DNA from: a virus
Taxonomy: Duplodnaviria > Heunggongvirae > Uroviricota > Caudoviricetes
Strand: one strand, 5' to 3'
Length of the DNA stretch: 64,000 nt
Virus record (IMG/VR): IMGVR_UViG_3300005528_000049
Each line of letters starts with the position of its first letter. Position 1 is the stretch's first letter. Shown one piece after another: positions 19,201-55,430 of this stretch. Both the position numbers and the translations under genes were made by a program. Under the pieces are notes generated by a model. That model was not told the origin of the DNA, made no database searches, and saw nothing but the letters and a program-made list of their open reading frames with translations.

Positions 19201-19642
19201 AACAAGCAATCCAATTCAAACAACAATAAAAGATTTTAAAAATCTTTTTACTAAAGAAGGCTTGAAGAAGATTTCTATTGATGATTTACTTTTATTGAAA
19301 GCCACTTTAGATTATGGAAATGAAAGGCTGAATGAACTGTCAGAGATACTTTCTTCTGCATCTTTGGGTGTGTCTCCTAATAAGAATGCCAGAAATAACT
19401 ATGCAAGGAATAATACTTCTTATGTAACTGGTTCTGTGCAGCCAATATTACCCTCAACAACTGGAAATGAGTTAGCACAAGTTAATTCAATAAGTAATTT
19501 TGATACTTCTGCAGTTGGTTTATATGATGCAGAAGCAGAGGCTAGAGCACAAAATGAGTTGTTCTTACAAACGGTTTCAGAACAACTGCCAGATGAAGTT
19601 GAAGTATTAGAAGAAATCTTTGGCTCAGTAGAAGATGCATAA
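19193..19642 (+). CDS. hypothetical protein (acidic C-terminus)
   Basis: 149 aa; overlapping start/stop with neighbours. Confidence 0.45.
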   Translation: MAKTSNPIQTTIKDFKNLFTKEGLKKISIDDLLLLKATLDYGNERLNELSEILSSASLGVSPNKNARNNYARNNTSYVTGSVQPILPSTTGNELAQVNSISNFDTSAVGLYDAEAEARAQNELFLQTVSEQLPDEVEVLEEIFGSVEDA

Positions 19643-21737
19643 TAGTAATATATATTCTTATATTACTACTCAAGAGTTGTTAGAACAAATAATAGATGTT
19701 CTAACAACTCTTTCAAAAGAAGAAGTGGTAAATGTTGGTATTGACTTTGAAGGCTATGTTAAAGATGAATATAGACTTGTAAGCTCAGGTTTAGATTGCT
19801 ACTGTAATAAGCTAAGACTTATAAGTATTAATTGGATTGGTAATGATGGCCCAACAGTTGTAGTTGAATTAAATACTGTTGATATACTGCCCTTCTTAAA
19901 TCTAATAAAGAATAATAATAGATTTATTGTATGGGCGCATAATGCAACCTTTGAAATAAGACAGATTAAACATCACTATAATATTGAAATGAACAATATA
20001 TACTGTTCAATGGTTATGTTTAATACTTTATATGTATCTATTGGATGGAGACAAAGTAAGTTGGCAATTGGTAGTAGTTTAGGCTCTATCATGAGACACT
20101 TTGCAGGAGTTGTAATGGATAAAACATTACAAACATCTGATTGGTCTAGCCCTATTCTTAGTAAAGCTCAGTTGGAATATTCAGCAATGGATGTTAATAC
20201 TAAGTGGTTAGAATTATGTATAAATGTTAAAGAAAGTCTTATAAGTTATTATGAACAAGAGTATGCATTTAATCTAGATCAAGATGCAATGAGAATCTTA
20301 GCTATTGTTGAGTATGTTGGTTTTAATATTGATAAAGTTAAGATGAATAGCTTTATTAAAGAATTAGAACAACTATCTAATGATACTAAGATTAAGTTAG
20401 CAAGACAATTAGATCAGCCATTATCAGTGTCTTTAGTTGAAGATGAGGATGGTATCTTACAACAATCTTTAACAGTATCTCCTATAGTAACAACTATTTT
20501 TAATAATCCTAAGAAGTTAGGTACTATTATTAATAGTAAGTTCAAAGTTAATTTAACTGCTTTGAACGCTGCTATTATGAAAGAGTTTCTTTCTAATCAA
20601 GATGATGATGAAGATGAGGAAGACACTGATGATGTAGATTTAGAAATGATATCTAATAAGCAAGATGCAAAGGAGGTTATAAATACTTTTATTGTATATA
20701 AAAGACAGGAAAAACTAATAACAGAGATTAGTAAATATAACTCTATTGTTAGTCCAATAACTGGTGCTTTACATGCTACTACTAATCCTGTGGGGGCTGG
20801 AACTGGTAGAATGTCATCTTCTTCTAGTATTATTGTTGGTGATAAAAAGTTTAAGATGAATTTACAACAGGTAATTGCTAGAGGCAATTATGACATTAGA
20901 AGCGGTTTTATAGCTAGACAAGATTATGTTATTGCTGGCATTGACTTTAGTTCACAAGAAGTATTAACTGCAATGGCTTATGCTAAAGATGAAGCGGGTT
21001 TAGCACCCTTTTATCAAAAGAAAAAACAGTTATATCTATTAGATAATAATGGAAATCAAATACTTAATAAGAAAGGTAAACCTGTAGAAGATCCTTATAC
21101 TGATCCTCATACTGTAGCTGCTATGGGCTTATGTCCAGCTTTAAAGAATTATCCAGCAGAACTTATTAGAGAAATGGCTGAGGGTAATCATAAGAATTTT
21201 AAATATACTTATAATAATAAAGATCTATTATATTTAGATGTATATAATAAATCTATAAATGATCTACAAACCTATTTAGGATGTAGTATTGAAGAAGCTA
21301 CTAATATTATTAATATATTAAGTAGTATACCTTCTTCTACAGACTTCAGATTTCAAGGGAAGATTTTAAACTTTAGTGTTATTTATGGTAAGACTGAACA
21401 AGGTTTATCTGAAGACTTAAAATGTTCTGTTGAAGATGCAGCTAAAGTATTACATAGTTATTTTAGTCAATTCTTTAAGCTTAAAGAGTGGCTTGATAAT
21501 AGTGCTAAAGAAGCAATTAGATGTAAAAGAATAAGGCTACCAACTGGCAGATGGTTATGGGTAGATGAATCTAATTCAAAGGGAAATGATGCTTCAGCTC
21601 AAAGAAAGGGTCCAAATGGATATGTTCAAGGATTTTGTGCTGATCAACTAAAAGTAACCCTGCCATATGTTAGAAAGTATTTAGAAGAAGTAAATAATAG
21701 ATACAAAGTTAGAAATTGTATTGTAGCTTTAGTGCAT
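19635..21737 (+). CDS. DNA polymerase, family A, exon 1 (3'-5' exonuclease + polymerase domains up to motif C His)
   Basis: Exo I motif VGIDFEGYV (DxE); motif B-like GKILNFSVIYGKTEQG (KxxxNFxxxYG); ORF stops 8 codons after ...IVALVH, where the motif C HDE triad should continue. Confidence 0.8.
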
Positions 21738-22770
21738 AGCCCTTATCATTGTGCACTTTAAACCCTGTTATGCTATAATTAAAATATAGTTTTAGTTTAA
21801 TGTAATGGAAACAATTTATTTGCGTGGAAAAGAAGTTTTATTAGACAAGTCAACAGTAGATTTACTTGACTTATTAAATGTCAAATTATTTATTGCACCT
21901 TCAGAAGATTATGTAGGATGCTACTTTAATAGACGAAGTATGTATTTACATCAATTTTTGATGTGTCCTTTAAAAGGATATGTTGTTGATCATCTTGATA
22001 GAAATAAATTAAATAACTGTCTTTCTAATTTGAAAGTAGTTACATATTCTGTAAACATACATAACAGATTAAGGGCTAAACCTTTAAGTGGTTATTATGG
22101 AATTAGAGAAAAGATTCTTAAAGATGGTACTACTTCATATGCAGTATTAATAGCTAATTCAGGAATTACTTATCATAGAACCTTCTCAAATATTGAATCA
22201 GCAATAAAGTATTATGACTTAAAAGCTTTAGAATTATTTGAGAGCAGTGCTGTTTTAAACAACCCAGATACAATATTTTCTTTAGAAGAATTAAATTCTT
22301 TAGAAGAAGAAAGTAGAATTACTTCTCTAAGAGGTAAAAACTCTAGAAAGTTAAATGGGGATAAAAAGGGTGGCTTTTCTTTTAAAACTGAAAGAAATAG
22401 ATGGGAAGTAAGAACCTGGAATGGAAACAAAATGAAGCGTAAATATTTTCATACCAAACAAGAAGCAGAAGATTATTTTAAAGTGGCTTTGCTGGAAACC
22501 CCTTAGAGCTTCTTAACTACAAAGCAATTAGGAATAATATACTTGATAGTTATAAAAACTAAGAAGATTGGGCAATCAGCAGGGGGATATAAAGATCTTG
22601 TATCTCCTTCAACGACTATCAAAAAGGTACATAATTATTATGTATAACTGAGTAGAGTAAGGTACAGTGTATCTGAAAAGCAGGGAGTATAGAAATATAC
22701 TATGATATAGTCTGATCTTATATGAAAGTATAAGAGTGTTAAAGGAAACGTTTAGCATGTAACATAAATG
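21738..22770 (+). mobile_element. putative group I intron interrupting the DNA polymerase gene, carrying an HNH-AP2 homing endonuclease ORF
   Basis: 5' exon ends with U (..GUGCAU); the intron start contains GUGCAC able to pair with the exon end (P1 with U.G at the splice site); the intron ends with G (..AAAUG); the downstream exon resumes exactly with DEIVYELHKD, completing the motif C HDE triad (compare Klenow VHDELVFEVHKDD). Confidence 0.55.
21805..22506 (+). CDS. HNH homing endonuclease with AP2-type DNA-binding domain (intron-encoded)
   Basis: GYVVDHLDRNKLNNCLSNLKVVT (HNH_3-type motif); YYGIREK...DGTTSYAVLIANSGITYHRTFSNIESAIKYY is a classic AP2 domain of phage homing endonucleases. Confidence 0.75.
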   Translation: METIYLRGKEVLLDKSTVDLLDLLNVKLFIAPSEDYVGCYFNRRSMYLHQFLMCPLKGYVVDHLDRNKLNNCLSNLKVVTYSVNIHNRLRAKPLSGYYGIREKILKDGTTSYAVLIANSGITYHRTFSNIESAIKYYDLKALELFESSAVLNNPDTIFSLEELNSLEEESRITSLRGKNSRKLNGDKKGGFSFKTERNRWEVRTWNGNKMKRKYFHTKQEAEDYFKVALLETP

Positions 22771-22932
22771 GATGAAATTGTATATGAGTTGCATAAAGAC
22801 TCAGCAGAAGAAGTGGGAAATAAACTAAGAGATATGATGGAAACAATACAAGGTGATATGTTAAAGCAATACTTTGATTGTGAGACTGGTGGTTTTAGTA
22901 GTTTAACAATTGCTCCTTGTTGGAAGAAATAA
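22771..22932 (+). CDS. DNA polymerase family A, exon 2 (motif C to C-terminus)
   Basis: DEIVYELHKDSAEEVGNKLRDMME... aligns to Pol I ...HDELVFEVHKDDVDAVAKQIHQLME...; 53 codons, ends TAA; the ATG just upstream is preceded by an in-frame TAA, so it is unlikely to be an independent gene. Confidence 0.6.
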   Translation, partial: DEIVYELHKDSAEEVGNKLRDMMETIQGDMLKQYFDCETGGFSSLTIAPCWKK

Positions 22933-40009: not shown

Positions 40010-43000
40010 ATGTTAGTTGAATTTGAGTTAAATAAAGAAGAACAAGATATTAAACCTGACTTTGGTCCTGTAGGTTCTATTGTTGATATTAGAACATATA
40101 GAAGATGGCTGCCAAATAAAAAAAGAAGAGAGACATTTGTAGAAAGAAATGCAAGAGTAGTAGATGCTAATTTAGACCTTGTTAAAGATATTATTAGTGA
40201 TCAAGAGTATGAGTTAGAAAGATCTACTATGATGGATCATATGAATAAATTACTAGCTCTGCCTTCTGGTAGAAGTATGTGGATTGCAGGCACTGAAGCT
40301 AATAAAAAACATCCTGCTTCATCCTTCAATTGTTCAGCTTTAGCTATTAATAGAATAGAAGCTTTTACAACTGTATTTGAACTGTTAATGCTTGGTACTG
40401 GTGTTGGATTTAGAGTGTTTGGCTCTGATATTAATGAGCTGTCAAATATTAAGAAGTTTGATATATTGTTTGATTCTTATAACCCAAAGCCTAAACATGA
40501 GAGAATTGAAAGTACCATTGTAAGTTATTCTAAGAATGCAACTATTGTACAGGTTGGGGATAGTAGAGAAGGATGGATACATGCTTTACACGCTCTCTTA
40601 GAAATAGCTTTTTGTATAAATAAAGATACGTCTATCTCATTTAATTTTGATTCTGTTAGACCATTAGGTGAGAGAATTAATGGTTTTGGTGGCACGGCTA
40701 GTGGTCATGAAGCATTAAAGAATTTGCTTAAAGATGTCTTTGATATCTTTAATGAATGTCCGGATAGTAAGCTTAGAAGTATTGATTGTTTAGATATTTG
40801 TTGTGCTATTGCTAAGGGTGTTGTAGCTGGTAATACTAGAAGATCTGCATTACTTTGTCTCTTTGAAGAAGGTGATGACCTAATGGCCAATGCTAAGGTA
40901 AACCTATTTGATGATCCTACTTTAAAGGGTAAGTATTATAGAATTCAAAGTAATAATACTGAAGCATTAGGCACCCCTTATTTATCTGAATTAAGAGAGT
41001 TTCTAGAAGCCAATCCAGATGTTTCTAAAGAAGATTTATTCAAGTTTATTGATAAGTACAAACCTTCTGTTGAATGGTTAAAAGAAAGATTTAAAGTAAT
41101 TGCTAATGCTGGTGATCCAGGCTTTGCTAACTATTTGAAGATGGTTGGTAAGAAGTGGTTAGCTGTTAGAAAGCACAGACCTGATTTTGATGTTAAGAAA
41201 ATCTGGGAATATTTTTGTGATATTTGTACGAACCCATGCCACGAAATAATTTTGTCTGTAGGTTATAAAGATGGTAAAGGAACTGGATTTTGCAATTTAA
41301 CAACTCTTCCAATTAATAAATTTGTTATTAAAAAATGTAATAATAATGATTTATGTGCAGTTACTGGTTATAAGCTAGATGAGAAAGCTTTAGAACAAGC
41401 TATTAAACTTACAGTTAGAATAGCTACAAGACAAACCTTTGTTACTATGCCTAGAGCTGAACTAGATGATACTCAGAAAGCTGAAAGATTGTTGGGAGTG
41501 TCAGTCACTGGTTGGATTCAATTATTTAATAAACTAGATTTGTCTTATACAGAACAAGAAGACTTAATGACTAAGTTAAATGACTGGGCTAATGATGAAG
41601 CAACTACATATGCTAATAAGTTAGGTATTGAAAGACCCTTAATGGTGTGTTGTATTAAACCAGAGGGGTGCGGAAAAATTTCACATATAAGAACAACAAC
41701 TGAAGGTTTATTAAGAGTTGATGAGATCGGAGATGTATCTAAATTAGGTTTTAATAAAGTTGATACAAACAATACAACAACTAAAGGATTTTCTATTAGA
41801 AGTGTATATAATAACGGCTTATCTAAAGTTGTAAAAATTAAACTAAACAATGGAAGAGAATTAGTATTTACACTCCAACATCCTTTTAGTGTAAATGGTT
41901 TATGGAAAAATGCTGTTAATTTAAAGAAAGGCGATGTATTAGATATTGAATTAGATACTTATAATAAAGTAACTAATGAATTACTAGCAAATTACAGTGC
42001 TAAATATAATCATTTAAGAAAAGAAGATTTATTATTTCCTAAAGAAATAACTAATGATTTATCTTGGTGGGTTGCTAGTGTATTTGCTAATGGTAGTGTA
42101 ACTAATCATGCAATTAGTTTCTATTCAGGATATATAGAAGTAGTACAAAAGTTTGTTGATTTAAGCAATAGTTTATTTAATATTTCTACTGTTGCTACAA
42201 AAGATAAAATAAAAGATATGTATAGGGTAAATATTAATTCTACAGATTTAGTTGAATATTTAAAGCTTAATGGTTTATTAAAGACAAAAAACTTTACTAT
42301 TCCTCTTATTATTAGAAGATCTAGTAGAGAAGCTTTACTATCTTTTATTTGTGGTTATTTAGATAATGATGGCTGCTTTAAAAACAAAGGATGTAGTATT
42401 ACTACAAAGAATGAAAACTTTGCAAGAATGTTACAAGAAGTTGGAGAAGCAGTAGGGCTATCATTTAGTTGTTATGATTATACAAGAGAAACAACTAAAA
42501 GTATTGGCATTTATTATGACTTACAGTTAAGTAGAACTTATTCAACTAATAGAGCTATTGATTTTATTAACAGTAATAGTATTAAAGCTAAATTAAATGG
42601 CTTTATTATTTCAAGTGATAAGAGTCATAAAAATCCTTATAAGGTTGATAGTGTTGAAGTATTAGAAGAGTTAATTAACACTTATGATATAGAAGTAGAT
42701 GATCCTCATTGGTATTATCAAGGTGGTATTAAATCGCATAATACTGGCTCTAAAGTATTAGGCTCTTCTAGTGGAGTTCATTGGGATTGGGCACCTTATT
42801 ATATTAATAGAATTCAAATGGGCGCTAATGATGCTCTTGCTAAGACATTAAAAGATCAGGGCTTTAGCTGGATTCCAACTCCTTATGATTTACTTAAACT
42901 ATATAATGATCAAGTTGAAGTGTTTAGTAATAATAATGTTATTAGATTATTTCAAAGGTTATTAGTTAGGTTTAATATTACTAAATCAAAATATGAGCCA

Positions 43001-43531
43001 AAGTTTAAAGATGTTTGGAGTAGAATTGAACACTTTAGATCTCTAACTGATAAGGATAAACAAGAAGCCTTTAACAATTCTAATGCAGTTTTATTTGAGT
43101 TTCCTGTTAACTCTGGTATGGTTGAATCTCAAGGTAGTGTAAGTGCTAGTAGACAGTTGCAAAATGTACTTAGATTTACTGATTGTTATGTTGATCATAT
43201 GGTGTCTTCTACTATTACAGCTAAAGAAGATGAATGGGATAACTTAGCAGAAGAGTTACATCAAGAAAAGAATTGGTTTAGATTTATTAATGCGGCCTTC
43301 TTATCTTATTACAGTGGTAATCATCCTCTTCTTCCTAATGAAGAAATAACAGAAGAAGTCTATAACAAGATGATGTCTTCTTTCAAGCAGTCTGAGTGGG
43401 TTAAAGATGGCAAGTTCTATGTCAATGAAGATCTATTAGCTAAATTAGAACAAGCAGCTTTAAGAGCTAATGTTGATATTGATGATGTTGATTTAGGTGC
43501 TTCTTGTCAAGGGGCATGTCCCGTCCGTTAA
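40010..43531 (+). CDS. nrdJ: ribonucleotide reductase, class II (adenosylcobalamin-dependent, NrdJ-like) containing an intein
   Basis: active-site motif ICTNPCHEIILS (TNPCxEI, class II form); no adjacent NrdB-like gene; C-terminal Cys pair SCQGACPV; 1173 aa including an in-frame 358-aa intein. Confidence 0.75.
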   Translation: MLVEFELNKEEQDIKPDFGPVGSIVDIRTYRRWLPNKKRRETFVERNARVVDANLDLVKDIISDQEYELERSTMMDHMNKLLALPSGRSMWIAGTEANKKHPASSFNCSALAINRIEAFTTVFELLMLGTGVGFRVFGSDINELSNIKKFDILFDSYNPKPKHERIESTIVSYSKNATIVQVGDSREGWIHALHALLEIAFCINKDTSISFNFDSVRPLGERINGFGGTASGHEALKNLLKDVFDIFNECPDSKLRSIDCLDICCAIAKGVVAGNTRRSALLCLFEEGDDLMANAKVNLFDDPTLKGKYYRIQSNNTEALGTPYLSELREFLEANPDVSKEDLFKFIDKYKPSVEWLKERFKVIANAGDPGFANYLKMVGKKWLAVRKHRPDFDVKKIWEYFCDICTNPCHEIILSVGYKDGKGTGFCNLTTLPINKFVIKKCNNNDLCAVTGYKLDEKALEQAIKLTVRIATRQTFVTMPRAELDDTQKAERLLGVSVTGWIQLFNKLDLSYTEQEDLMTKLNDWANDEATTYANKLGIERPLMVCCIKPEGCGKISHIRTTTEGLLRVDEIGDVSKLGFNKVDTNNTTTKGFSIRSVYNNGLSKVVKIKLNNGRELVFTLQHPFSVNGLWKNAVNLKKGDVLDIELDTYNKVTNELLANYSAKYNHLRKEDLLFPKEITNDLSWWVASVFANGSVTNHAISFYSGYIEVVQKFVDLSNSLFNISTVATKDKIKDMYRVNINSTDLVEYLKLNGLLKTKNFTIPLIIRRSSREALLSFICGYLDNDGCFKNKGCSITTKNENFARMLQEVGEAVGLSFSCYDYTRETTKSIGIYYDLQLSRTYSTNRAIDFINSNSIKAKLNGFIISSDKSHKNPYKVDSVEVLEELINTYDIEVDDPHWYYQGGIKSHNTGSKVLGSSSGVHWDWAPYYINRIQMGANDALAKTLKDQGFSWIPTPYDLLKLYNDQVEVFSNNNVIRLFQRLLVRFNITKSKYEPKFKDVWSRIEHFRSLTDKDKQEAFNNSNAVLFEFPVNSGMVESQGSVSASRQLQNVLRFTDCYVDHMVSSTITAKEDEWDNLAEELHQEKNWFRFINAAFLSYYSGNHPLLPNEEITEEVYNKMMSSFKQSEWVKDGKFYVNEDLLAKLEQAALRANVDIDDVDLGASCQGACPVR
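41669..42742 (+). mobile_element. intein with LAGLIDADG homing endonuclease inside the RNR ORF
   Basis: Begins with Cys after KPEG (CGKISHI..., block A); block B TLQHPF; LAGLIDADG motifs WWVASVFANGSV and CGYLDNDGCF; block F YDIEVDDPHWYYQGG; block G IKSHN followed by Thr; the excised extein would read CIKPEG/TGSKV. Confidence 0.7.
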
Positions 43532-48783: not shown

Positions 48784-48857
48784 ATTTCAGTAGTGTAACG
48801 GTAGCATAAGAGTCTCCAAAACTTTTGGTAATAGTTCAAATCTATTCTGATTTGCCA
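48784..48857 (+). tRNA. tRNA-like, probable tRNA-Trp(CCA) with genome-encoded 3' CCA; 5' half non-canonical
   Basis: anticodon arm agagt-cuccaaa-acuuu (anticodon CCA, U33, A37); T arm aatag-TTCAAAT-ctatt; 3' ctgattt-g-CCA; no clean complementary 5' acceptor strand or D stem could be found by eye. Confidence 0.35.
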
Positions 48858-49012
48858 AGGGTCTGAAAGGTTTCGATGCTAGAAATAACTAATTAGACAT
48901 GCTTAGTAGTTTTATGAATGAAAAGCTAGGTGACAGAAAAATAAATGGCAACGTTAAAAATAATATTGTTAGCTTCTCTAAAGCACCTGTTTTAGCCTAA
49001 CAATAAATGAAA

Positions 49013-49040
49013 GGAGTAGTAGAAAATACTACTCCTTTTT
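49013..49040 (+). terminator. rho-independent terminator
   Basis: ggagtagta-gaaaa-tactactcc followed by ttttt. Confidence 0.7.
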
Positions 49041-49067
49041 AAGTCTTAAATTATTTAAAAGAAATTA

Positions 49068-49370
49068 ATGAATAATAAAAAACTAAAGAAAAGACATTTT
49101 AGTAAAGAAATAAGACTCTGCTTTGTTAATAATAAAGCAGACTTAATTAGTAAACTTATTGAAATTTTAACTCAAGAGTTACCAGAAGATATTGATAGTA
49201 TAAAAAAGTTTGGTTTTAATTTAGATAATAGTTTGCCTCTTTTAAATTGTGATTTTCATGTTGATTATTCAGGCTTTGAAACCTCAGAAGAATATAGAGA
49301 AAGACTAAAACTATTAACTGAATTAGCTGATGAGTTTAATTATTTAGAGAAAAATCATGGCCAGAACTAA
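49068..49370 (+). CDS. hypothetical protein
   Basis: 100-aa ORF. Confidence 0.4.
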   Translation: MNNKKLKKRHFSKEIRLCFVNNKADLISKLIEILTQELPEDIDSIKKFGFNLDNSLPLLNCDFHVDYSGFETSEEYRERLKLLTELADEFNYLEKNHGQN

Positions 49371-49734
49371 AAAAGTAAAAGATATTATAGTTGAACCAAC
49401 TATTGAACAAAGTGAATATATATCTATTTCTAGTATGTTTGCTGGTAAAGATTTACTTAAGGATAGTTCTAATTTAAATACAAAATTAAATCCTGAGAAT
49501 CACTACTTTCAGGACATTCATAGACTAGATCCAGAAGGAGACTTGCCCTTTTATTATGTAATTCATTTTGATAATTTACAATATAAGGGTGGTCCTTATA
49601 AAACTATCTATCAAGCTAATAGAGATTGTGCAATTAAGTTATATGAGTTATATAACTTAGAAGAAACCCCTATCATTGAATGTGAAAAAAAGGTTATTAA
49701 GAAAGATGAAAACAATACAGAAATGGATATATAG
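49357..49734 (+). CDS. hypothetical protein
   Basis: 125-aa ORF. Confidence 0.4.
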   Translation: MARTKKVKDIIVEPTIEQSEYISISSMFAGKDLLKDSSNLNTKLNPENHYFQDIHRLDPEGDLPFYYVIHFDNLQYKGGPYKTIYQANRDCAIKLYELYNLEETPIIECEKKVIKKDENNTEMDI

Positions 49735-50053
49735 TCTATTATTTGCACTAAGCTTAAATGTTTATGCTTTTCCTGCACTATCTACTAATGTAAGAGAAGT
49801 AAGAGAAGTAATAGAAGTATCACAAAAGAAGCATATACAAGCAGAACATATTAAAGGCTTTGATACATATGATCATCCAATTGATTATCATATAGAAGAA
49901 CAATATATCTTAAGATTTAAAGATAGAAATGGTTTTTTTGTTGTTCCAAAAAGAGTATATGATAAAACAGAAGTTGGAGATATGTTCACAACAGAAGATG
50001 ACCAATTGTATTATTGTAGATATATAGATAACTGTTATGATTCAACTCTCTAA
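49676..50053 (+). CDS. hypothetical secreted protein
   Basis: N-terminal signal-peptide-like MKTIQKWIYSLLFALSLNVYAFPALS. Confidence 0.4.
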   Translation: MNVKKRLLRKMKTIQKWIYSLLFALSLNVYAFPALSTNVREVREVIEVSQKKHIQAEHIKGFDTYDHPIDYHIEEQYILRFKDRNGFFVVPKRVYDKTEVGDMFTTEDDQLYYCRYIDNCYDSTL

Positions 50054-51032
50054 ACTAAGAGATATTAAAAAGGTAATATCTCTTAGTTTCTATGAAAATA
50101 GAATTGATCTTTTTAGAATACTATATAACTTGAATAAGTTATTAGAAAAGGTAGAACAAGATTTAAACTATATGCTTCCTAATATTTATATAGATAGTCC
50201 TCAAGCTAACTGTATTTCTATAAAAGCGTTTAAAGATCATATTGAATTAAAGTTTTTTAAGTCAGTTGCAACTTCTAATTATATATATATATACAATGTA
50301 AGATTTTATAAAGGTGGTTATTTCATTAATAACAACAAACATAAAGCATCTTATAAAGATTTACTAAAGTTTATTGATTCCTTTTACAACATTAAACAAA
50401 GATCTTTGGCTTATAGTTTAGACACATTATGTCCAGGCTTATACATTTGGTTTTTTAATACATATATTATACTTGGCGGTGACATATGCCCTGCTAACTA
50501 TAACTATGTTATACCTACTAAATTAGGCTTTGGATTTGTATTTCCTAGTCTTGATCATTGGCACACACCATTTAAACAATTTAAAAAAAATATGACGTTA
50601 GAAGAGTTACTTAAATATAATAATCCTTTAGATGGTTTAGAAGCTATTTATAAAGAATATAATTTATTAGGTGTAGAAGAAGAGAATGATCCTAATGCAC
50701 CTAATATAAGTCAAGAAGAAAAAGAGCTTAGACAACAAAATCTAATTATGAAAAAGAAATATGGATGGGCTTTCTCTGATCTTTGGAACTTAGATGACGT
50801 TATATTTAAGTTTATTCTTCCCAGATTATATGTGTTTTATAAAGAAGATGTTGAAGGTAGACAGGATGTTTATCTTGATGAAGGAAGTTGGGCAGACATT
50901 GTTAAAGATATCTTAAGAATGATTCTACTTAATCTAGAACATGATGGTAGTGGCTTTACTCCTAAAGAAAGTATGATTCATATTAATGGTATGACTTTAT
51001 TAGCAAGGTATATTAGAAGACTATGGATTTAA
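50037..51032 (+). CDS. hypothetical protein (C-terminal domain duplicated in the next gene)
   Basis: 331 aa; C-terminal ~100 aa (YGWAFSDLWNLDDVIFKFILPRLYVFYKEDVEG...GSWADIVKDIL...LARYIRRLW) is paralogous to ORF 51023..51430. Confidence 0.5.
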   Translation: MIQLSKLRDIKKVISLSFYENRIDLFRILYNLNKLLEKVEQDLNYMLPNIYIDSPQANCISIKAFKDHIELKFFKSVATSNYIYIYNVRFYKGGYFINNNKHKASYKDLLKFIDSFYNIKQRSLAYSLDTLCPGLYIWFFNTYIILGGDICPANYNYVIPTKLGFGFVFPSLDHWHTPFKQFKKNMTLEELLKYNNPLDGLEAIYKEYNLLGVEEENDPNAPNISQEEKELRQQNLIMKKKYGWAFSDLWNLDDVIFKFILPRLYVFYKEDVEGRQDVYLDEGSWADIVKDILRMILLNLEHDGSGFTPKESMIHINGMTLLARYIRRLWI

Positions 51033-51430
51033 CAACTTTATTAGCCTTTGAGGATTATAAAGAAGGATTAAAAGCCCTCTATGAAAGATATGATTTAACA
51101 TTAGGATATAAGGATTATGATGCCTCTGAAGAAGAAACTATACAATATCTAAATAGTAATTATGGTTGGAATACAACTGAACTGTGGAATTTGGATGATA
51201 CAATAACTAGATTTCTTGTTTCTAGATTATATGTATTTTATAAGTTAGATGACAGTACTTCTCAAGAGTTTGAAGAAGGTAGTTGGGGTGATATTTTAAA
51301 AAGTATATTAGAAGGATTATTAATGATGTTGTATACCAAAGAAGGGTTTGAACAACCTAATAGAGATGAAAAGATTATTAATGATGCAACTATGCTATTA
51401 GGTAAATATTTTAGAAGATTATGGAATTAA
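51023..51430 (+). CDS. hypothetical protein, paralog of the C-terminal domain of the upstream gene
   Basis: YGWNTTELWNLDDTITRFLVSRLYVFYKLDD...GSWGDILKSIL...LGKYFRRLW. Confidence 0.5.
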   Translation: MDLTTLLAFEDYKEGLKALYERYDLTLGYKDYDASEEETIQYLNSNYGWNTTELWNLDDTITRFLVSRLYVFYKLDDSTSQEFEEGSWGDILKSILEGLLMMLYTKEGFEQPNRDEKIINDATMLLGKYFRRLWN

Positions 51431-51433
51431 ATA

Positions 51434-52207
51434 ATGAGATTTCAACCTCTTAGTGATATTCATTTAGAGTTTTATAAAGATAGTAGTACTGTAAAAATAA
51501 AAGATACTGATAGTGACTGTATTATTTTAGCTGGTGATATACATACTAAAACAAGAGCTATTAAATGGTTGTTAGATCAAAAGATTAATAAGCCAATATT
51601 TTATATATGTGGTAATCATGAGTTTTATGGAACTAACTGGCCTAGAAATATAGATAAGTTAAAAGAAGCTGCCAAAGACACAAATATACATGTATTAGAA
51701 AATGATTATTATATTTTTAAAGATTGGATAATCTTAGGCTGTACTTTGTGGACAGATTATAAATTATTAGAACCTATTGTTCCTCAACAATTAGCAATGT
51801 CTGCTTGTTTTAAAGGAATGAATGATTTTTATAAAATTAGAAATAGTAATTTTGGCTATAAAAAGATTATACCCTCTGATTTATTACATGCTCATTATGA
51901 ATCTGTTGATTTTTTAAAGACATACTTAGAAGTATTTAATGGATGTAATATAGCTGTATTAACACATCATACTCCTTCTATAAAATGTATTGATCCTACA
52001 TATCATAAAGATATTTTAAGTGCCGCTTATGCTTCTAACTTAGATGAGTTTGTTGCTTATAGTGGGGCTAAGATTTGGTTTACAGGTCATACTCATTATA
52101 AGTATAAAAAGTTTATGCTTGGAGACACATTATTGGTATCTAATCCAATGGGTTATTTAAATTATATTAATGAAGATTTTGATCCTAAACAAGTAGAAGA
52201 AGTGTAA
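51434..52207 (+). CDS. calcineurin-like metallophosphoesterase
   Basis: ordered MPP motifs LSDIHLE (DxH), ILAGDIHT (GD), ICGNHEFY (GNHE), LTHHTP, FTGHTHY (GHxH). Confidence 0.7.
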   Translation: MRFQPLSDIHLEFYKDSSTVKIKDTDSDCIILAGDIHTKTRAIKWLLDQKINKPIFYICGNHEFYGTNWPRNIDKLKEAAKDTNIHVLENDYYIFKDWIILGCTLWTDYKLLEPIVPQQLAMSACFKGMNDFYKIRNSNFGYKKIIPSDLLHAHYESVDFLKTYLEVFNGCNIAVLTHHTPSIKCIDPTYHKDILSAAYASNLDEFVAYSGAKIWFTGHTHYKYKKFMLGDTLLVSNPMGYLNYINEDFDPKQVEEV

Positions 52208-52554
52208 TGAGTAATCATTTAGAAGAAGAAACAAAAGATAATATTATAAGACATTTAATAATAAAGATTGATGTTTTAAAAGAAGATAAAAGAGCACTCT
52301 ATAAAGTAATTGAAGATGCACAACAAAAGATTTATAAATTAAAACATATTATTAATGATTTTACAAATCTTACTGTTAAGCCTAAATTTGAAATTGGAGA
52401 TAAAGTAAATATATTTCTTGATAGTGATACTACTTATGTAATTCAAGACTATATGTATGAACAGTCTTACCCAGTCTATAATATAATTCCTCTTGGTAGC
52501 ACAAGTGAAGATGATATTGAAACAGTCTCAGAAATGGACTTAATAAAAATATAA
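52207..52554 (+). CDS. hypothetical protein
   Basis: 115-aa ORF. Confidence 0.4.
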   Translation: MSNHLEEETKDNIIRHLIIKIDVLKEDKRALYKVIEDAQQKIYKLKHIINDFTNLTVKPKFEIGDKVNIFLDSDTTYVIQDYMYEQSYPVYNIIPLGSTSEDDIETVSEMDLIKI

Positions 52555-52747
52555 ATACAATAGAAAGTCATTAATATATGAATAAAAAAGATGTTTTTAT
52601 GATAAGTATAAATAAAGAAGATGTAAGACAAATTGTAAATGAGCAGATTGAATTACATGAAAGCAAAGGAAGAAAGTATGGATATCTAGGCTTATGTATA
52701 TTTCTTTCTACATATATGTTTCTTTTATATCTAATTGTGGCTAAACA

Positions 52748-53401
52748 ATGAAGGATCTTATAATTAATGCATATCCTTGTAAATATCTAATTGCAGTTCA
52801 AGATAGTTCTGAGAACTATGTAATTGAGTCTAAAAGTATATTTAATTGGGTAATTACTAAGAAGGATGATACTAATAATGTATTAGAAAAGGATCTTTCT
52901 TGGGTCAACTATTTATCAGCAAAGGACAAAAATAATTACTTATTTAACACTTTTGAAGATGCTTTTGCCTTTCTTAAGTTATATATACATCATCAAGAAA
53001 TAATAAATCATCAATTAGAGATGCATAAAAAAGAACTACACTTACTAAAACAAGAGTTTGATGTAGATCCTATTTATGCTGTTGGTGATCTTTATTTAGA
53101 TCTTGATGTTTGTATATCTCCAACAGATATTGAAGATATATTAAAAAGATATTCAGTCTTTATTAGTGGCATTGTAAATAAAAGTGGTAATCCTTTTGGT
53201 GGTGTGCAAATTACAATTAGATCCCTCTCTGAGTTGTTATTTATTGAAGATACTTTAAAAAAGATTCAAAAAGATAACAACTATGAGATTGTAAATTACT
53301 TTAATTTTAGTCAACCCTCAATATCAAAGACAGCCCCTTTATGTTATTATTGGCAGGTTTGTGACACTTATACTAGACATTTTACTTTTATTAAAAAGTA
53401 A
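52748..53401 (+). CDS. hypothetical protein
   Basis: 217-aa ORF. Confidence 0.45.
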   Translation: MKDLIINAYPCKYLIAVQDSSENYVIESKSIFNWVITKKDDTNNVLEKDLSWVNYLSAKDKNNYLFNTFEDAFAFLKLYIHHQEIINHQLEMHKKELHLLKQEFDVDPIYAVGDLYLDLDVCISPTDIEDILKRYSVFISGIVNKSGNPFGGVQITIRSLSELLFIEDTLKKIQKDNNYEIVNYFNFSQPSISKTAPLCYYWQVCDTYTRHFTFIKK

Positions 53402-53453
53402 AAAAATTAAGTTTGATTTTAATATAAATAAATAATTTACTTAATAAAAAATC

Positions 53454-53882
53454 ATGTCTAGAAAAATAACTGTTACTCAAGATCAAATCAATAACATTTT
53501 AGATACTGCTGAAACACAAGAAACTATTTTTTGGAATAAAGAACTATTAATAAGTTATAGAATTTATAATGGCTTTACTATTACAGGAAGGGGAGCTTGT
53601 GTTGATCCTAATTACTTTGATATACAATTAGGTAGAAAGTATGCTAGAGAAGATGCTGCTAATCAACTATGGCAGTTAGAAGGTTATTTATTACAGAATA
53701 AAATGCATAATGAAAAAGCATCTAACTGTAATAATGAGTGTAAGTGTTCTTCTAAAAAAGAACCTAGAACAAGAGAAGAATGGACTGCTCTATTTAGTTC
53801 TTATGACTTTGTAGATGAGCAAGGACATTCTTTAACTATGTGTACAGACTTTATTGATCTTGTTGAATTAGCTGTTAGATAA
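53454..53882 (+). CDS. hypothetical protein
   Basis: 142-aa ORF. Confidence 0.45.
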   Translation: MSRKITVTQDQINNILDTAETQETIFWNKELLISYRIYNGFTITGRGACVDPNYFDIQLGRKYAREDAANQLWQLEGYLLQNKMHNEKASNCNNECKCSSKKEPRTREEWTALFSSYDFVDEQGHSLTMCTDFIDLVELAVR

Positions 53883-53893
53883 AAAGTTATTAT

Positions 53894-54214
53894 ATGAAAG
53901 ATGTAAGCCTTCAAAGAGAGATGTTGACTCTTTTAAATAATAAAATAGAAGATTTAAAAGAGCAAATTAGATTAAAAGATGTAATAAATAAAGAATTAAC
54001 AAAGATAATAGAACAACAAGAGACTATAATAAAGTCTCTTGTTTTAACAATAAAAACTCCTAAATATAAAAGAAAGGATATTGTTTCTATTGTAGGAGAA
54101 GGTGATGAAAGATATACTGTTGAAGGTTGTTCTTCTTATTTTCCTGTTTATACTTTAACTAGTATTATAGATAATTCTGTAAGAGAATCTATATTAGAAT
54201 GTGAAATAGTTTGA
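53894..54214 (+). CDS. hypothetical protein
   Basis: 106-aa ORF. Confidence 0.4.
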   Translation: MKDVSLQREMLTLLNNKIEDLKEQIRLKDVINKELTKIIEQQETIIKSLVLTIKTPKYKRKDIVSIVGEGDERYTVEGCSSYFPVYTLTSIIDNSVRESILECEIV

Positions 54215-54352
54215 CATGTTAATGTAAATGTGTTATAAGTATATTAATACTATATTAGTAAAGTAGAAGCTAATTAAGTTTAGTGCCAGAAGTTAATATC
54301 TGGTACAAGTAAAAATCTTGTTGCTTGCGATGATATATAGTATTAATAATAA

Positions 54353-54426
54353 GTGGGTATAGCTCAGAAGAAAAGAGTGCTGGCTTTGGGAGCCAGAGGC
54401 CGCAGGTTTAAGCCCTGCTACCCGCA
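54353..54426 (+). tRNA. tRNA-Pro (anticodon TGG)
   Basis: acceptor gtgggta/tacccgc (one G.U); U8; D arm gctc-agaagaaaa-gagt; anticodon arm ctggc-tttggga-gccag (U33, UGG, G37); T arm gcagg-tttaagc-cctgc; discriminator A; no encoded CCA. Confidence 0.7.
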
Positions 54427-54432
54427 TTTATT

Positions 54433-54472
54433 AAAAAAAAGAGAGTTGTTAAACACTAACTCTCTTTTTTTT
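54433..54472. terminator. bidirectional rho-independent terminator
   Basis: aaaaaaaagagagtt-gttaaacact-aactctctttttttt between the tRNA-Pro (+) and the HNH gene (-). Confidence 0.7.
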
Positions 54473-54476
54473 GTAT

Positions 54477-55208
54477 TTACTTTTTCTTTTTATAATCAAC
54501 TTCTAATTTAATACATCTTTTTTTTACAGCATTATCACTTACATCAAATATCTTTCCTATATAAACCATAGGATATTTATCTACTAATTCTTGTAGTTCT
54601 TCTTTTGTAACTTCAAATTTTAAAGGACGTGAAAAGTTTACTTTATTATTTATCTTAGAGCATTTACCACATCTTGTAGATTTTATATGTATATTACAGT
54701 TACAATCTACACATTTGTTTTGAATGATCTCTTTTCTTCTTCCTCTACCAGCATAAGTTTCTGTTTGAGTGTGACAGTTAGGACATAAGAATCTAAGATT
54801 TTCTAATCTATTATCACTATTAATTCCATTAATATGATCTAATTGAAGAACTAATTCTTGATTATTCCAATGTCCAGGGTTATTACAAATAGAACATTTA
54901 TATTTTAATAGATTTTCTTTTACTAATCTTCTTTTTAGATCTTGTCTGCTATATGTGGAATTTTCTACTAATATTTTATCTAAATCAAGAGCATTAATCC
55001 CTCCAAAAGATTTTGCTTTTCTATTTTTATTTAACTTGTCTAAAGATAAACTATCTTCTTTTATTCTATTGTTTAATTCTTTGTAATTATTTCCATGAAG
55101 AGACATATCAATTTTTAAAAGAACTTCAGCTAAAGTATTACAGCTATTTAATATATCTTGTAATTTATCTTTATCTAATTTCCAAATTGTATTATGCATA
55201 CTTTTCAT
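54477..55208 (-). CDS. HNH endonuclease
   Basis: LVLQLDHINGINSDNRLENLRFLCPNCH (canonical HNH His-Asn-His with Cys zinc ligands); extra Cys-rich zinc-ribbon segments. Confidence 0.75.
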   Translation of the reverse strand: MKSMHNTIWKLDKDKLQDILNSCNTLAEVLLKIDMSLHGNNYKELNNRIKEDSLSLDKLNKNRKAKSFGGINALDLDKILVENSTYSRQDLKRRLVKENLLKYKCSICNNPGHWNNQELVLQLDHINGINSDNRLENLRFLCPNCHTQTETYAGRGRRKEIIQNKCVDCNCNIHIKSTRCGKCSKINNKVNFSRPLKFEVTKEELQELVDKYPMVYIGKIFDVSDNAVKKRCIKLEVDYKKKK

Positions 55209-55318
55209 AATAATTGAATCTTGTAGTAATTAACAGCAATTATACTACAAGGTTTAATAACTTGTCAAATAATATTAACTTGACAAACATATTACTTTAA
55301 TGTATTATATTAAAATAT

Positions 55319-55392
55319 GGCGGGGTGTGGTAGTAGTAACCAATCACTCTCATAAGGTGAAATCAAGGCAGTGTGCAAATCCTGCCCCCGCA
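55319..55392 (+). tRNA. atypical tRNA-like element, anticodon CAT (Met/Ile-type), copy 1
   Basis: D arm tggt-agtagta-acca; anticodon arm tcact-cucauaa-ggtga (U33, CAU, A37); 6-bp acceptor gcgggg/ccccgc followed by unpaired T; T-loop-like GTGCAAATCC instead of GTTCAAATCC; structure not fully canonical. Confidence 0.35.
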
Positions 55393-55430
55393 ATTTAACT
55401 ATATTACTAATATTAATTTAGTTATTCTTA

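What the first reader, a model, noticed from the sequence alone, without database searches (positions are those of the whole stretch)
19635..22932. DNA polymerase (family A) gene split exactly within motif C by a ~1.03-kb putative group I intron encoding an HNH-AP2 homing endonuclease
Exon 1 ends ...IVALVH and exon 2 begins DEIVYELHKD.... Joined, they recreate the invariant motif C (VHDE..E.HKD) of Pol I-family polymerases. The 5' exon ends in U, and an internal guide-like GUGCAC 14 nt into the intervening sequence can pair with the exon end GUGCAU (P1 with U.G). The intervening sequence ends in G. It carries a complete HNH plus AP2-domain endonuclease ORF (21805..22506). A self-splicing intron in the catalytic core of the replicative polymerase is a hallmark of a homing element and is usually unannotated by ORF callers, because the 53-codon exon 2 is missed.
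Basis: partly seen in the sequence, partly recalled or inferred. Interest (0 to 1): 0.65.

Follow-up and report, generated by a model that had tools for sequence, protein, structure and literature searches.

The report
Mobile intron splitting phage DNA polymerase
The DNA polymerase gene of this uncultivated AT-rich freshwater phage is interrupted, right at its catalytic Asp-Glu, by a 1,033-base group I intron that carries its own homing endonuclease; this is a real and well-supported example of a kind of element already known from other phage polymerase genes.

Summary

- **Gene structure.** Exon 1 is 19635-21737 and ends ...IVALVH. Exon 2 is 22771-22932 and begins DEIVYELHKD. They flank a 1,033-nt insert at 21738-22770.
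- **Intron-less allele.** A metagenomic contig (L029) equals the window with exactly those 1,033 nt removed: 0 differences in 2,265 coding nt, and identical flanks.
- **Ribozyme.** The insert has P1 with a U.G at the splice site, P10, P3-P9, P7.1/P7.2 (subgroup IA2-like), P9.1 and a terminal G.
- **Rfam.** RF00028 misses it at gathering threshold. Targeted scans give 23-25 bits. An ORF-less intron at the same site in a relative scores 63 bits.
- **Covariation.** Four ORF-less same-site introns show 18 compensatory pairs. All six helix substitutions in the endonuclease-carrying copies preserve pairing.
- **Mobility.** The intron is 97% identical between phages whose flanks are 45-83% identical.
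- **Endonuclease.** The ORF is an intact HNH nuclease with AP2-like repeats.
- **Precedent.** T7-like phages phiI and W31 are reported to carry introns at the same polymerase site (881), so this is a new member of a known kind.
- **Mildly unusual.** The ORF appears to sit in an extra stem between P3 and P4, and the intron looks mosaic.

The parts
19635..21737 (+). Exon 1 of the family A DNA polymerase: 701 codons covering the 3'-5' exonuclease domain and the polymerase domain up to His of motif C (...IVALVH).
   Evidence: ORF list and sequence. Pfam DNA_pol_A_exo1 and DNA_pol_A. Alignment to uninterrupted homologues.
21738..22770 (+). Group I intron, subgroup IA2-like, 1,033 nt. It follows an exon U and ends in G (omega-G at 22770).
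   Evidence: It is exactly absent from the otherwise identical contig L029. Rfam partial hits. Helix table. Unconstrained fold of the ORF-deleted construct.
21731..21757 (+). P1 hairpin. 5' strand AGUGCAU|AG (21731-21739), 3' strand UUGUGCACU (21749-21757). The internal guide GUGCAC is at 21751-21756. U21737.G21751 is the splice-site wobble. UCAUU (21746-21750) can pair with exon 2 GAUGA (22771-22775) as P10.
   Evidence: 9/9 pairs for P1 and 5 pairs for P10. P1 is conserved in all nine same-site introns.
21763..21769 (+). P3 5' strand, CCCUGUU. It pairs with AGCAGGG at 22679-22685, across the ORF.
   Evidence: 7/7 pairs, and predicted by the unconstrained MFE fold. It occupies the same position after the conserved UUUAAAC as P3 in the ORF-less relatives (CCUAUC/GGUAGG), with three pairs changed on both sides (sequences).
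21772..21786 (+). 5' strand of an extra stem that carries the ORF in its loop: GCUAU-AA-UUAAAAUA. It pairs with UAUUUUAA-A-GUGGC at 22474-22487.
   Evidence: 13/13 pairs. Predicted by MFE and duplex folding at -17.2 kcal/mol. The L014 change G22483A turns U.G into U-A. This is an inferred element, not a canonical one.
21805..22506 (+). Homing endonuclease gene, 233 aa. The HNH motif lies around residues 54-94, followed by AP2-like repeats around residues 95-150 and 185-231. The last 11 codons overlap the extra stem, P4 and P5.
   Evidence: Pfam HNH_3 30.9 bits. PHROG 99 'HNH endonuclease' at 1e-23. PDB I-HmuI and WRI1. 15 synonymous against 8 non-synonymous codon differences versus L014.
22474..22487 (+). 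3' strand of the ORF-bearing stem. It lies inside the 3' end of the ORF.
22490..22581 (+). P4 (UGCUGG 22490-22495 / UCAGCA 22576-22581) and P5 (CCC 22499-22501 / GGG 22570-22572), with a long P5 extension between them.
   Evidence: The stretch 22489-22582 is 76-81% identical to cores of phage group I introns. One of these (DW2) scores 80.1 bits with Rfam and one (AR9) is annotated as a group I intron. Alignment A1. The Rfam alignment places it on P4-P5-P4' with high posterior.
22582..22608 (+). P6 hairpin, 11 bp.
   Evidence: The L011 change G22585A turns G.U into A-U.
22609..22619 (+). J6/7 and the P7 5' strand (UCAAC-GACUAU, the 'R' element). P7 is 22614-22619 paired with 22707-22712.
   Evidence: Aligned to the conserved GUUCAaAGACUA of RF00028. 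6/6 pairs. P7 covaries (GACUA/UAGUC versus GAUCA/UGAUC) in the ORF-less relatives.
22627..22674 (+). P7.1 (22627-22634/22638-22645) and P7.2 (22660-22665/22669-22674), with the conserved AGUAGAG linker between them. These helices are the IA2 hallmark.
   Evidence: Two L014 substitutions in P7.2 keep the pairs (G.U to A-U and C-G to U.G). IA2 criterion as stated in PMC3428280.
22679..22685 (+). P3 3' strand, AGCAGGG.
22686..22701 (+). P8 hairpin, AGUAUA-GAAA-UAUACU.
22702..22712 (+). J8/7 and the P7 3' strand (AUGAU-AUAGUC, the 'S' element).
   Evidence: Near-exact match to the RF00028 consensus GAUAUAGUC with high posterior. It is the only exact occurrence of ATGATATAGTCTGA in the window.
22716..22758 (+). 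P9 (22716-22723/22728-22735, GAAA loop) and P9.1 (22736-22743/22751-22758).
   Evidence: In P9.1, A-U becomes G-C (a double compensatory change) and U.G becomes U-A in L014. Both helices covary in the ORF-less relatives.
22771..22932 (+). Exon 2 of the polymerase: 53 codons plus stop (DEIVYELHKD...CWKK). It carries the catalytic Asp-Glu of motif C.

Best explanation
The 1,033 nt at 21738-22770 are a mobile group I intron, IA2-like, in the family A DNA polymerase gene of an uncultivated AT-rich phage whose contigs in the collection reach about 228 kb.

**Splicing (inferred).** After transcription the intron RNA folds so that the exon end GUGCAU pairs with the guide GUGCAC (P1). A free guanosine bound in P7 attacks after U21737. 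The released exon 1 then attacks after the terminal G22770, helped by P10. This joins ...VH to DE... and restores motif C, giving a 754-aa polymerase.

**Homing (inferred).** The intron encodes an HNH endonuclease with AP2-like DNA-binding repeats. It presumably nicks or cuts intron-less polymerase alleles near the insertion site during co-infection. Repair then copies the intron in.

**What is shown here:**
- the exact boundaries of the insert;
- the intron-less allele;
- the conserved core sequences and helices, with compensatory changes;
- the presence/absence polymorphism;
- the island of high identity.

Splicing chemistry, endonuclease activity and endonuclease target are inferred from family membership.

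**Architecture (inferred).** The ORF sits in the loop of an extra 13-bp stem between the P3 5' strand and P4. Its last codons run into P4 and P5, so translating the ORF and folding the ribozyme should be mutually exclusive on a single RNA molecule.
For: 1. **Colinearity.** Five uninterrupted homologues read IVAL(V/I)HDEIVYEL across the junction. The joined protein gains 29 bits on Pfam DNA_pol_A and aligns continuously to Taq and Klenow through VHDE.
2. **Exact boundaries.** Contig L029 equals the window over 2,320 nt upstream and 3,000 nt downstream, and its polymerase gene has 0/2,265 differences from exon 1 plus exon 2. The flanking bases do not allow the deletion boundaries to be shifted.
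3. **Ribozyme, sequence level.** RF00028 hits at E=5e-4 and 1e-4 align P4-P5, P6, J6/7-P7, J8/7-P7' and P9. The stretch 22489-22582 is 76-81% identical to phage intron cores. Of four inspected, one (DW2) passes Rfam at 80.1 bits and one (AR9) is annotated as a group I intron.
4. **Ribozyme, fold.** Unconstrained folding of the ORF-deleted RNA gives P1, P3, P4-P6, P7.1, P7.2, P8, P9 and P9.1. All helices are fully paired.
5. **Selection on structure.** Six of six helix substitutions versus L014 and L011 keep pairing, and one is a double compensatory change. Four ORF-less introns at the same site have 94% of cells paired and 18 pairs changed on both sides, with 0/500 shuffles reaching this and slid controls at 29-49% paired. 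One of them scores 63.1 bits on RF00028.
6. **Mobility.** The intron is 96.8% identical to that of L014, while exon 1 is 74% and exon 2 is 80% identical. The identity profile shows a sharp island. Relatives carry no intron, an ORF-less intron, or the endonuclease-carrying intron at this site.
7. **Endonuclease.** HNH motif intact, matches to I-HmuI and to AP2 repeats. 15 synonymous against 8 non-synonymous codon changes.
8. **Precedent.** Introns in the polymerase genes of T7-like phages phiI and W31 are reported at site 881 in E. coli numbering (PMC3428280). His881 precedes Asp882-Glu883, from my own knowledge of Pol I numbering.
Against: - RF00028 does not reach its gathering score in the window: no hit in the standard scan and at most 25.3 of 50 bits in targeted scans.
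- No experimental or read-level evidence of splicing is available. Whether L029 is DNA or assembled spliced RNA is unknown (one search found no sample information).
- An ATG or GTG directly precedes exon 2 in all copies, so separate translation of a 54-aa peptide cannot be excluded from sequence alone.
- J3/4 is atypical: AU and UU around an inserted stem, instead of the usual A-rich triplet.
- The endonuclease-carrying copies differ too little to test P3 or the extra stem by covariation among themselves.
Confidence: 0.9

Rival explanations
1. The gene is fractured without RNA splicing. The polymerase would be made as two polypeptides, a 708-aa protein ending ...VHSPYHCAL and a 54-aa MDEIVYELHKD... 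peptide. They would assemble non-covalently, the gene having been split by a DNA-level endonuclease cassette.
For: Both pieces are ORFs with their own start and stop codons. An ATG or GTG precedes exon 2 in every copy. Gene callers list them as separate genes. Genes split by homing endonuclease insertions are known in phages (from my own knowledge; 'fractured genes' in PMC2677866, seen).
Against: - The insert carries a complete, conserved group I core with compensatory changes. That core would have no reason to be maintained under this model.
- ORF-less introns of 255-284 nt occupy the same site, so the interruption does not depend on an endonuclease cassette.
- The break falls between His and the catalytic Asp-Glu of one beta-hairpin, an unlikely place for a functional protein split.
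- The A/GUG is explained by the required terminal G.
Confidence: 0.03
2. The intron is dead and the polymerase gene is a pseudogene: the ribozyme no longer splices and the phage relies on another polymerase.
For: The Rfam score is below threshold. J3/4 is non-canonical and a large insertion lies between P3 and P4.
Against: - Both exons are intact and, when joined, are identical to the uninterrupted allele.
- The interrupted allele is on record in 40 blocks of the collection, on contigs up to 228 kb.
- Substitutions preserve the helices, and the ORF shows an excess of synonymous changes.
Confidence: 0.03
3. The element is the same group I intron, but with a conventional architecture. The ORF would lie in the loop of a P2 stem, the 'extra stem' being P2. 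P3 would be a short local helix, GCUU(U) at 22486-22490 with (A)AAGC at 22677-22681, next to P4. The upstream CCCUGUU would then be a relic.
For: ORFs are normally in terminal loops of peripheral helices (PMC3984707). A 4-5 bp complementarity, GCUU(U)/(A)AAGC, can be read in the sequence. The site-2 intron of relative L027 has its ORF upstream of a conventional P3.
Against: - The local helix is only 4-5 bp and overlaps both the stem's GUGGC strand and P4, leaving no J3/4.
- The long-range P3 is 7 bp and is the MFE solution.
- It sits at exactly the position of P3 in the ORF-less relatives, after the identical UUUAAAC, with three pairs changed on both sides.
- An insertion between P3 and P4 has a precedent in yeast aI5beta (PMC2396411).
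Confidence: 0.2

Closest known systems
Group I introns (IA2, with HNH ORF, e.g. [quoted passage not shown]
   Same: The host gene family is the same (family A polymerase). The reported insertion site is 881 in E. coli Pol I numbering, which corresponds to the His|Asp-Glu junction of motif C found here. The subgroup is IA2 and the endonuclease is of the HNH family.
   Different: In those introns the ORF is in P6a. Here it lies between P3 and P4 in its own stem. The host phage is unrelated: its nearest polymerases in the phage collection are about 28% identical. I could not compare the intron sequences directly, because I did not find those records in the collections searched.
SPO1, SP82, Bastille and Pf-WMP3 polymerase introns encoding the nicking HNH enzymes I-HmuI, I-HmuII, I-BasI and I-PfoP3I
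   Same: They are self-splicing IA2 introns in phage family A polymerase genes that encode HNH homing endonucleases. The HNH motif here matches I-HmuI (1u3e) at E=8e-4. Multiple introns in one polymerase gene, and Rfam hits broken up by endonuclease ORFs, are described for Bastillevirinae (PMC11878797).
   Different: Those introns sit at site 674, in the fingers subdomain, not at 881. The DNA-binding part here is AP2-like, whereas the HNH families in Bastillevirinae polymerase introns carry NUMOD and I-HmuI-like domains.
Widespread IA2 introns of Staphylococcus (DW2, JDF86), Bacillus (AR9/PBS1) and T5-like Salmonella phages
   Same: The P4-P5-P4' segment is 76-81% identical over about 94 nt. 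The JDF86 intron ORF is annotated as an AP2 domain protein and shares the HNH-AP2 layout.
   Different: The host genes differ: tail hydrolase, virion RNA polymerase subunit, helicase and lysin. In those introns the matching core segment lies upstream of the ORF, not downstream of it. The endonucleases are at most about 30% identical.
ORF-less group I introns at the same site in related uncultivated phages (L012, L015, L016, L028)
   Same: The insertion site and the guide sequence GUGCAC are identical. The last 67 nt are 84% identical and the first 35 nt 63% identical. The helix set is the same, including P7.1, P7.2 and P9.1.
   Different: They are 255-284 nt with no ORF. Their P4-P6, P7.1/P7.2 and P8 sequences are only 31-38% identical to the window's.

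Membership tests
Group I intron (Rfam RF00028) | The 5' splice site follows a U that forms a U.G wobble in P1 with an internal guide sequence. | tested here: met
   U21737.G21751 lies within a 9-bp P1. It is conserved in all nine same-site introns.
Group I intron (Rfam RF00028) | The last intron nucleotide is G (omega-G), with P10 pairing to the 3' exon. | tested here: met
   G22770. GAUGA at 22771-22775 pairs with UCAUU at 21746-21750, immediately 5' of the guide.
Group I intron (Rfam RF00028) | A conserved core: P3-P8 with the P3/P7 pseudoknot, the P/Q elements (P4) and the R/S elements (P7). | tested here: met
   All helices are fully paired. The R element (UCAACGACUAU) and S element (AUGAUAUAGUC) align to the model consensus. 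The P4-P5 homology to recognised introns is shown.
Group I intron (Rfam RF00028) | A score at or above the family's gathering threshold (50 bits). | tested here: not met
   There is no hit in the whole-window scan. Targeted scans give 23.2 and 25.3 bits. The model cannot span the 718 nt (the ORF and its stem) between the P3 5' strand and P4, and it has no P7.1/P7.2. An ORF-less same-site relative scores 63.1 bits, and the site-2 intron of L027 scores 69.3 bits.
Group I intron (Rfam RF00028) | Guanosine-dependent self-splicing. | not testable with these tools
   The only indirect evidence is contig L029, which lacks exactly the intron and could be either DNA or spliced RNA.
Subgroup IA2 | Extra helices P7.1 and P7.2 between P7 and the P3 3' strand, linked by a segment that contains GUA. 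| tested here: met
   P7.1 is 22627-22645 and P7.2 is 22660-22674, with the linker AACUGAGUAGAGUA between them. Substitutions in P7.2 keep the pairs. The criterion is taken from PMC3428280. No GISSD subgroup model was available to score.
HNH homing endonuclease (I-HmuI-like, HNH_3) | An HNH / beta-beta-alpha-metal motif with the conserved His and Asn residues. | tested here: met
   Pfam HNH_3 scores 30.9 bits against a cutoff of 24.8, over residues 54-84. The sequence VVDHLDRNKLNN...NL..VT...N aligns to I-HmuI residues 67-106.
HNH-AP2 endonucleases | AP2 DNA-binding domain or domains C-terminal to the HNH motif. | tested here: inconclusive
   Pfam finds no AP2 hit even at E<=10. The two-AP2 protein WRI1 (7wq5) aligns to residues 123-231 at E=1.5e-4. 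There is weak similarity to an intron ORF annotated as an AP2 domain protein.
Mobile (homing) intron | Presence/absence polymorphism at one site, and horizontal spread independent of the host gene. | tested here: met
   Intron-less, ORF-less and endonuclease-carrying alleles all exist. The intron is 96.8% identical against 74-80% for the exons. The identity island is shown. Cleavage of the empty site was not testable.
Family A DNA polymerase | A 3'-5' exonuclease domain plus a polymerase domain with a motif C Asp-Glu. | tested here: met
   Pfam DNA_pol_A_exo1 and DNA_pol_A. VHDE aligns to Taq and Klenow.
Intein (considered) | An in-frame insertion translated together with the host protein. | tested here: not met
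   The exon 1 reading frame stops 7 codons into the insert. No Hint or intein domain is present in the insert.

The most novel reading that the evidence does not exclude
The endonuclease-carrying intron may be a natural chimera with a non-canonical layout.

- **Ends.** P1, the guide, the P3 5' strand, and P7' through P9.1 come from the resident ORF-less intron lineage at this polymerase site.
- **Centre.** The endonuclease gene and a different P4-P6 domain, of the type found in Staphylococcus, Bacillus and T5-like phage introns and in the second polymerase intron of relatives, were acquired together.
- **Result.** The ORF ends up in a new stem inserted into J3/4, between P3 and P4.

If this is right, the locus would capture endonuclease invasion by exchange of a ribozyme domain. 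It would also show that the J3/4 triple-helix junction tolerates a 700-nt insertion.
Probability: 0.35. Interest if true: 0.45.

Novelty: new member of a known kind. Interest (0 to 1): 0.3.

Why it matters
- **Annotation.** The replicative polymerase of an uncultivated phage found on many metagenome contigs is currently called as three unrelated ORFs, two of them 'hypothetical'. It should be annotated as one spliced 754-aa gene plus an intron-encoded endonuclease.
- **Method.** The standard Rfam scan misses endonuclease-bearing introns when the ORF separates core strands. Protein colinearity with intron-less alleles found this one.
- **Biology.** The clade shows the stages proposed for the homing cycle at one site: empty, ORF-less intron and endonuclease-carrying intron. 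Relatives also carry a second intron, and the same genome has an intein. This gives a compact natural system for studying intron and endonuclease turnover in environmental phages.

None of this changes what is known about group I introns in phage polymerase genes.

Tried and rejected
- **Rfam at gathering threshold on the whole window:** only tRNAs. A 1.2-kb scan at E<=10 gave no RF00028 hit. Only scans of about 300 nt recovered it.
- **IMG/VR scan with the polymerase:** one distant locus. IMG/VR scan with a 30-nt 3' intron pattern: nothing.
- **Metagenome scan with the polymerase alignment:** only 10 loci, of which three were useful.
- **Pfam and NCBIfam for an AP2 domain:** no hit.
- **Comparison with the ORF of the T5-like K44 intron:** no similarity.
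- **Promoter and terminator scans around the intron:** at chance level.
- **Searches for further intron cores in the window** using the J8/7 and P4' motifs: none beyond this one.
- **Literature search for the sample identifiers:** nothing, so the DNA or RNA nature of L029 stays open.
- **L013 (P0010):** it carries the intron's 5' end, but no exon 2 was found in the 660 nt left on the contig, so it was not used.
- **Intein and plain endonuclease-cassette readings:** rejected (see the membership test and the rival explanations).

Full report
**What is in the sequence.**

- The + strand ORF 19635..21761 encodes a family A DNA polymerase with its 3'-5' exonuclease domain (Pfam DNA_pol_A_exo1 and DNA_pol_A).
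- Its polymerase-like sequence ends at ...CIVALVH (His codon ending at 21737). Seven unrelated codons and a stop follow.
- A 54-codon ORF at 22768..22932 reads M-DEIVYELHKD....
- Between them lies a 233-codon ORF, 21805..22506.
- Joining 19635-21737 to 22771-22932 gives a 754-aa protein. Its Pfam DNA_pol_A match rises from 105.7 to 134.8 bits and extends from profile position 328 to 361.
- The C-terminal 187 residues of that protein align without a break to Taq and Klenow through ...VHDE(I/L)V.E..K..., the motif C that carries the catalytic Asp-Glu.

**The boundaries are exact, not just plausible.**

- A search of 5.8 billion proteins found close relatives of this polymerase.
- Five of them (P0002, P0003, P0006, P0007, P0020; 58-88% identical) are uninterrupted and read IVAL(V/I)HDEIVYEL across the predicted junction.
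- The 90% cluster of the exon 1 protein also contains a 754-aa member, P0051.
- Its contig (L029; JGI 3300005420, Ga0068879_1571304, 8.7 kb) is identical to the window over 2,320 nt upstream and 3,000 nt downstream of the gene.
- Its polymerase gene differs at 0 of 2,265 nt from exon 1 plus exon 2.
- L029 is therefore the window minus exactly 21738..22770. Because base 21737 differs from 22770 and base 21738 differs from 22771, the boundaries cannot be shifted.
- They coincide with the group I rule: a U before the 5' splice site and a G as the last intron base.
- I could not find out whether this sample is a metagenome or a metatranscriptome. It is either an isogenic intron-minus allele or an assembled spliced mRNA, and both readings support the interpretation.

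**Is the insert a group I ribozyme?**

Rfam at gathering threshold finds only tRNAs in the window, and a 1.2-kb scan at E<=10 still shows no RF00028 hit.
- Scans of about 300 nt downstream of the ORF do find RF00028, at 23.2 bits (E=5e-4) and 25.3 bits (E=1e-4). P4-P5-P4', P6, J6/7-P7 (UUCAACGACUA), J8/7-P7' (AUGAUAUAGUCUGAUC) and P9 are aligned at high posterior probability.
- Independently, blastn found that 22489-22582 is 76-81% identical to short stretches in many phages.
- The four I inspected all lie in genes that are split or flanked by an intron-type ORF. These are the Staphylococcus phage DW2 tail hydrolase (Rfam 80.1 bits), AR9 gene 078 (annotated group I intron with a homing endonuclease), a split helicase in the T5-like Salmonella phage K44, and the lysin region of Staphylococcus phage JDF86.
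- That stretch is P4-P5-P4' (UUGCUGGAAACCCC...GGGCAAUCAGCAG).

**Secondary structure.**

- Unconstrained MFE folding of the intron with the ORF body removed returns the canonical helices. I checked each of them base by base:

| Helix | 5' strand | 3' strand |
|---|---|---|
| P1 (9 bp, U21737.G21751 at the splice site) | 21731-21739 | 21749-21757 |
| P10 (5 bp) | 22771-22775 | 21746-21750 |
| P3 | 21763-21769 | 22679-22685 |
| P4 | 22490-22495 | 22576-22581 |
| P5 | 22499-22501 | 22570-22572 |
| P6 | 22582-22592 | 22598-22608 |
| P7 | 22614-22619 | 22707-22712 |
| P7.1 | 22627-22634 | 22638-22645 |
| P7.2 | 22660-22665 | 22669-22674 |
| P8 (GAAA loop) | 22686-22691 | 22696-22701 |
| P9 (GAAA loop) | 22716-22723 | 22728-22735 |
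| P9.1 | 22736-22743 | 22751-22758 |

- P7.1 and P7.2, with a GUA-containing linker, are the IA2 hallmark (PMC3428280).
- RF00028 scores low for two reasons. The P3 5' strand lies 718 nt upstream of P4, on the far side of the ORF. The model also has no P7.1 or P7.2.

**Evidence that the structure is under selection.**

- Relatives carry introns at exactly the same site.
- Three carry the same endonuclease-carrying intron: L011 and L027 (about 99% identical) and L014 (96.8%).
- Four carry ORF-less introns of 255-284 nt: L012, L015, L016 (the same as L017) and L028.
- The L016 intron passes Rfam at 63.1 bits.
- On the four ORF-less introns, RNAalifold predicts the same helices, with 18 of 76 pairs changed on both sides.
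- With my full structure including the P3/P7 pseudoknot, 94% of cells pair and 18 pairs have double changes. No shuffle out of 500 reaches this, and slid controls give 29-49% paired.
- Among the endonuclease-carrying copies, six substitutions fall in helices and all six keep the pair. One is a double compensatory change in P9.1 (A-U to G-C). The other five interconvert wobble and Watson-Crick pairs in P6, P7.2, P9.1 and the ORF stem.
- Between the two intron types, P3 changes from CCUAUC/GGUAGG to CCCUGU/GCAGGG, with three pairs changed on both sides (sequences).

**Mobility.**

- Against L014, a phage whose flanking genes are 45-83% identical, identity jumps to 92-100% across the intron and falls again within exon 2 and beyond.
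- Against the nearly identical strains L011 and L027, a divergent patch (68-86% identity) covers 20850-21740 and ends at the intron's 5' boundary. This looks like recombination or co-conversion of exon sequence associated with intron traffic.
- The ORF has an intact HNH motif (Pfam HNH_3, 30.9 bits; I-HmuI 1u3e, E=8e-4).
- Its C-terminal half aligns to the two AP2 domains of WRI1 (E=1.5e-4), although Pfam itself reports no AP2 domain.
- Compared with L014 it has 15 synonymous and 8 non-synonymous codon differences.
- Its nearest relatives in sequenced phages are HNH or AP2 endonucleases at 26-36% identity.

**An unusual detail.**

- The ORF does not sit in a terminal loop of a standard helix.
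- The P3 5' strand (21763-21769) lies upstream of the ORF, and P4 starts 3 nt after the end of a 13-bp bipartite stem. That stem (21772-21776 plus 21779-21786, paired with 22474-22481 plus 22483-22487) closes off the ORF.
- The ORF's last 11 codons overlap that stem, P4 and P5.
- The insertion is therefore in J3/4. An insertion between P3 and P4 is described for the yeast aI5beta intron (PMC2396411), so the position is not unprecedented. ORFs running into core sequence are also known (PMC3984707).
- A conventional alternative, with the ORF in a P2 loop and a 4-5 bp local P3, is weaker but not excluded.
- The intron also looks mosaic. Its first 35 nt and last 67 nt are 63% and 84% identical to the ORF-less lineage, but P4-P6, P7.1/P7.2 and P8 are only 31-38% identical.
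- Its P4-P5 instead resembles the Staphylococcus, Bacillus and T5-like phage introns, and the second polymerase intron of relative L027.

**Comparison with what is known.**

- Group I introns with HNH endonucleases in phage family A polymerase genes are classic. SPO1, SP82, Bastille and Pf-WMP3 carry them at site 674, phiL7 at site 676, and the T7-like phages phiI and W31 at site 881 in E. coli numbering (PMC3428280).
- Site 881 is the His of VHDE (Pol I numbering from my own knowledge), which is the site found here.
- Multiple introns per polymerase gene, and Rfam hits fragmented by endonuclease ORFs, are documented for Bastillevirinae (PMC11878797).
- The finding is therefore a new member of a known kind, in a phage lineage with no close cultured relative. 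The best polymerase match in the phage collection is Microcystis phage Ma-LMM01, at 28% identity.

**Verdict.** Confidence that this is a splicing-competent mobile group I intron is about 0.9. Interest is modest at 0.3: the case is clean and well documented and has annotation value, but it is not surprising. The ORF placement and the mosaic origin are the only features that might repay further work.

Noticed in passing
window 40010-43531 (+): The 1,173-aa ribonucleotide reductase ORF contains an in-frame insert at about residues 563-911. It hits Intein_splicing, PT-HINT and LAGLIDADG_3, so it is probably an intein with a LAGLIDADG homing endonuclease. This would be a second homing element in the same window.
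   Followed up: partly
L027 5861-7371 (relative of the window; the equivalent window position is about 21627, in ...QRKGPNGYV|QGFCAD): Near-identical and related phages carry a second group I intron in the same polymerase gene. It encodes a 389-aa LAGLIDADG protein, and its core scores 69.3 bits on RF00028. Eight homologues (P0005, P0012, P0013, P0015, P0016, P0018, P0019, P0021) end at this second site. The window lacks this intron.
   Followed up: partly
window about 21192-21340 (polymerase residues about 520-568): An in-frame insert of about 47 aa (KNFKYTYNNKDLLYLDVYNKSINDLQTYLGCSIEEATNIINILSSIPSST) lies just before motif B. It is present only in the window, P0002, P0003 and close kin. Most homologues read ...GGHDG.DYRFQGK there. 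Its origin and function are unknown.
   Followed up: no
window 20850-21740 compared with L011 and L027: Strains that are otherwise 98-100% identical to the window diverge to 68-86% over the last 850 nt or so of exon 1. The patch ends exactly at the intron boundary and includes the 47-aa indel. It suggests a recombination or co-conversion tract linked to intron exchange.
   Followed up: partly
L029 (JGI 3300005420, Ga0068879_1571304): This 8.7-kb contig is identical to the window except for a precise absence of the intron. It lies entirely within the + strand gene block that starts near 16929. It could be an assembled spliced transcript rather than DNA, but the sample type could not be determined.
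   Followed up: partly
window 48784-61572 (+): There is a cluster of eight tRNA genes, some unusually short (63-64 nt). One only just reaches the Rfam threshold (60031-60114, 29.9 bits).
   Followed up: no
L013 4972-5631 (P0010 contig): The 5' end of a same-site intron is followed by unrelated sequence, with no exon 2 in the 660 nt left on the contig. It could be a degenerate intron, a rearrangement or an assembly chimera.
   Followed up: no
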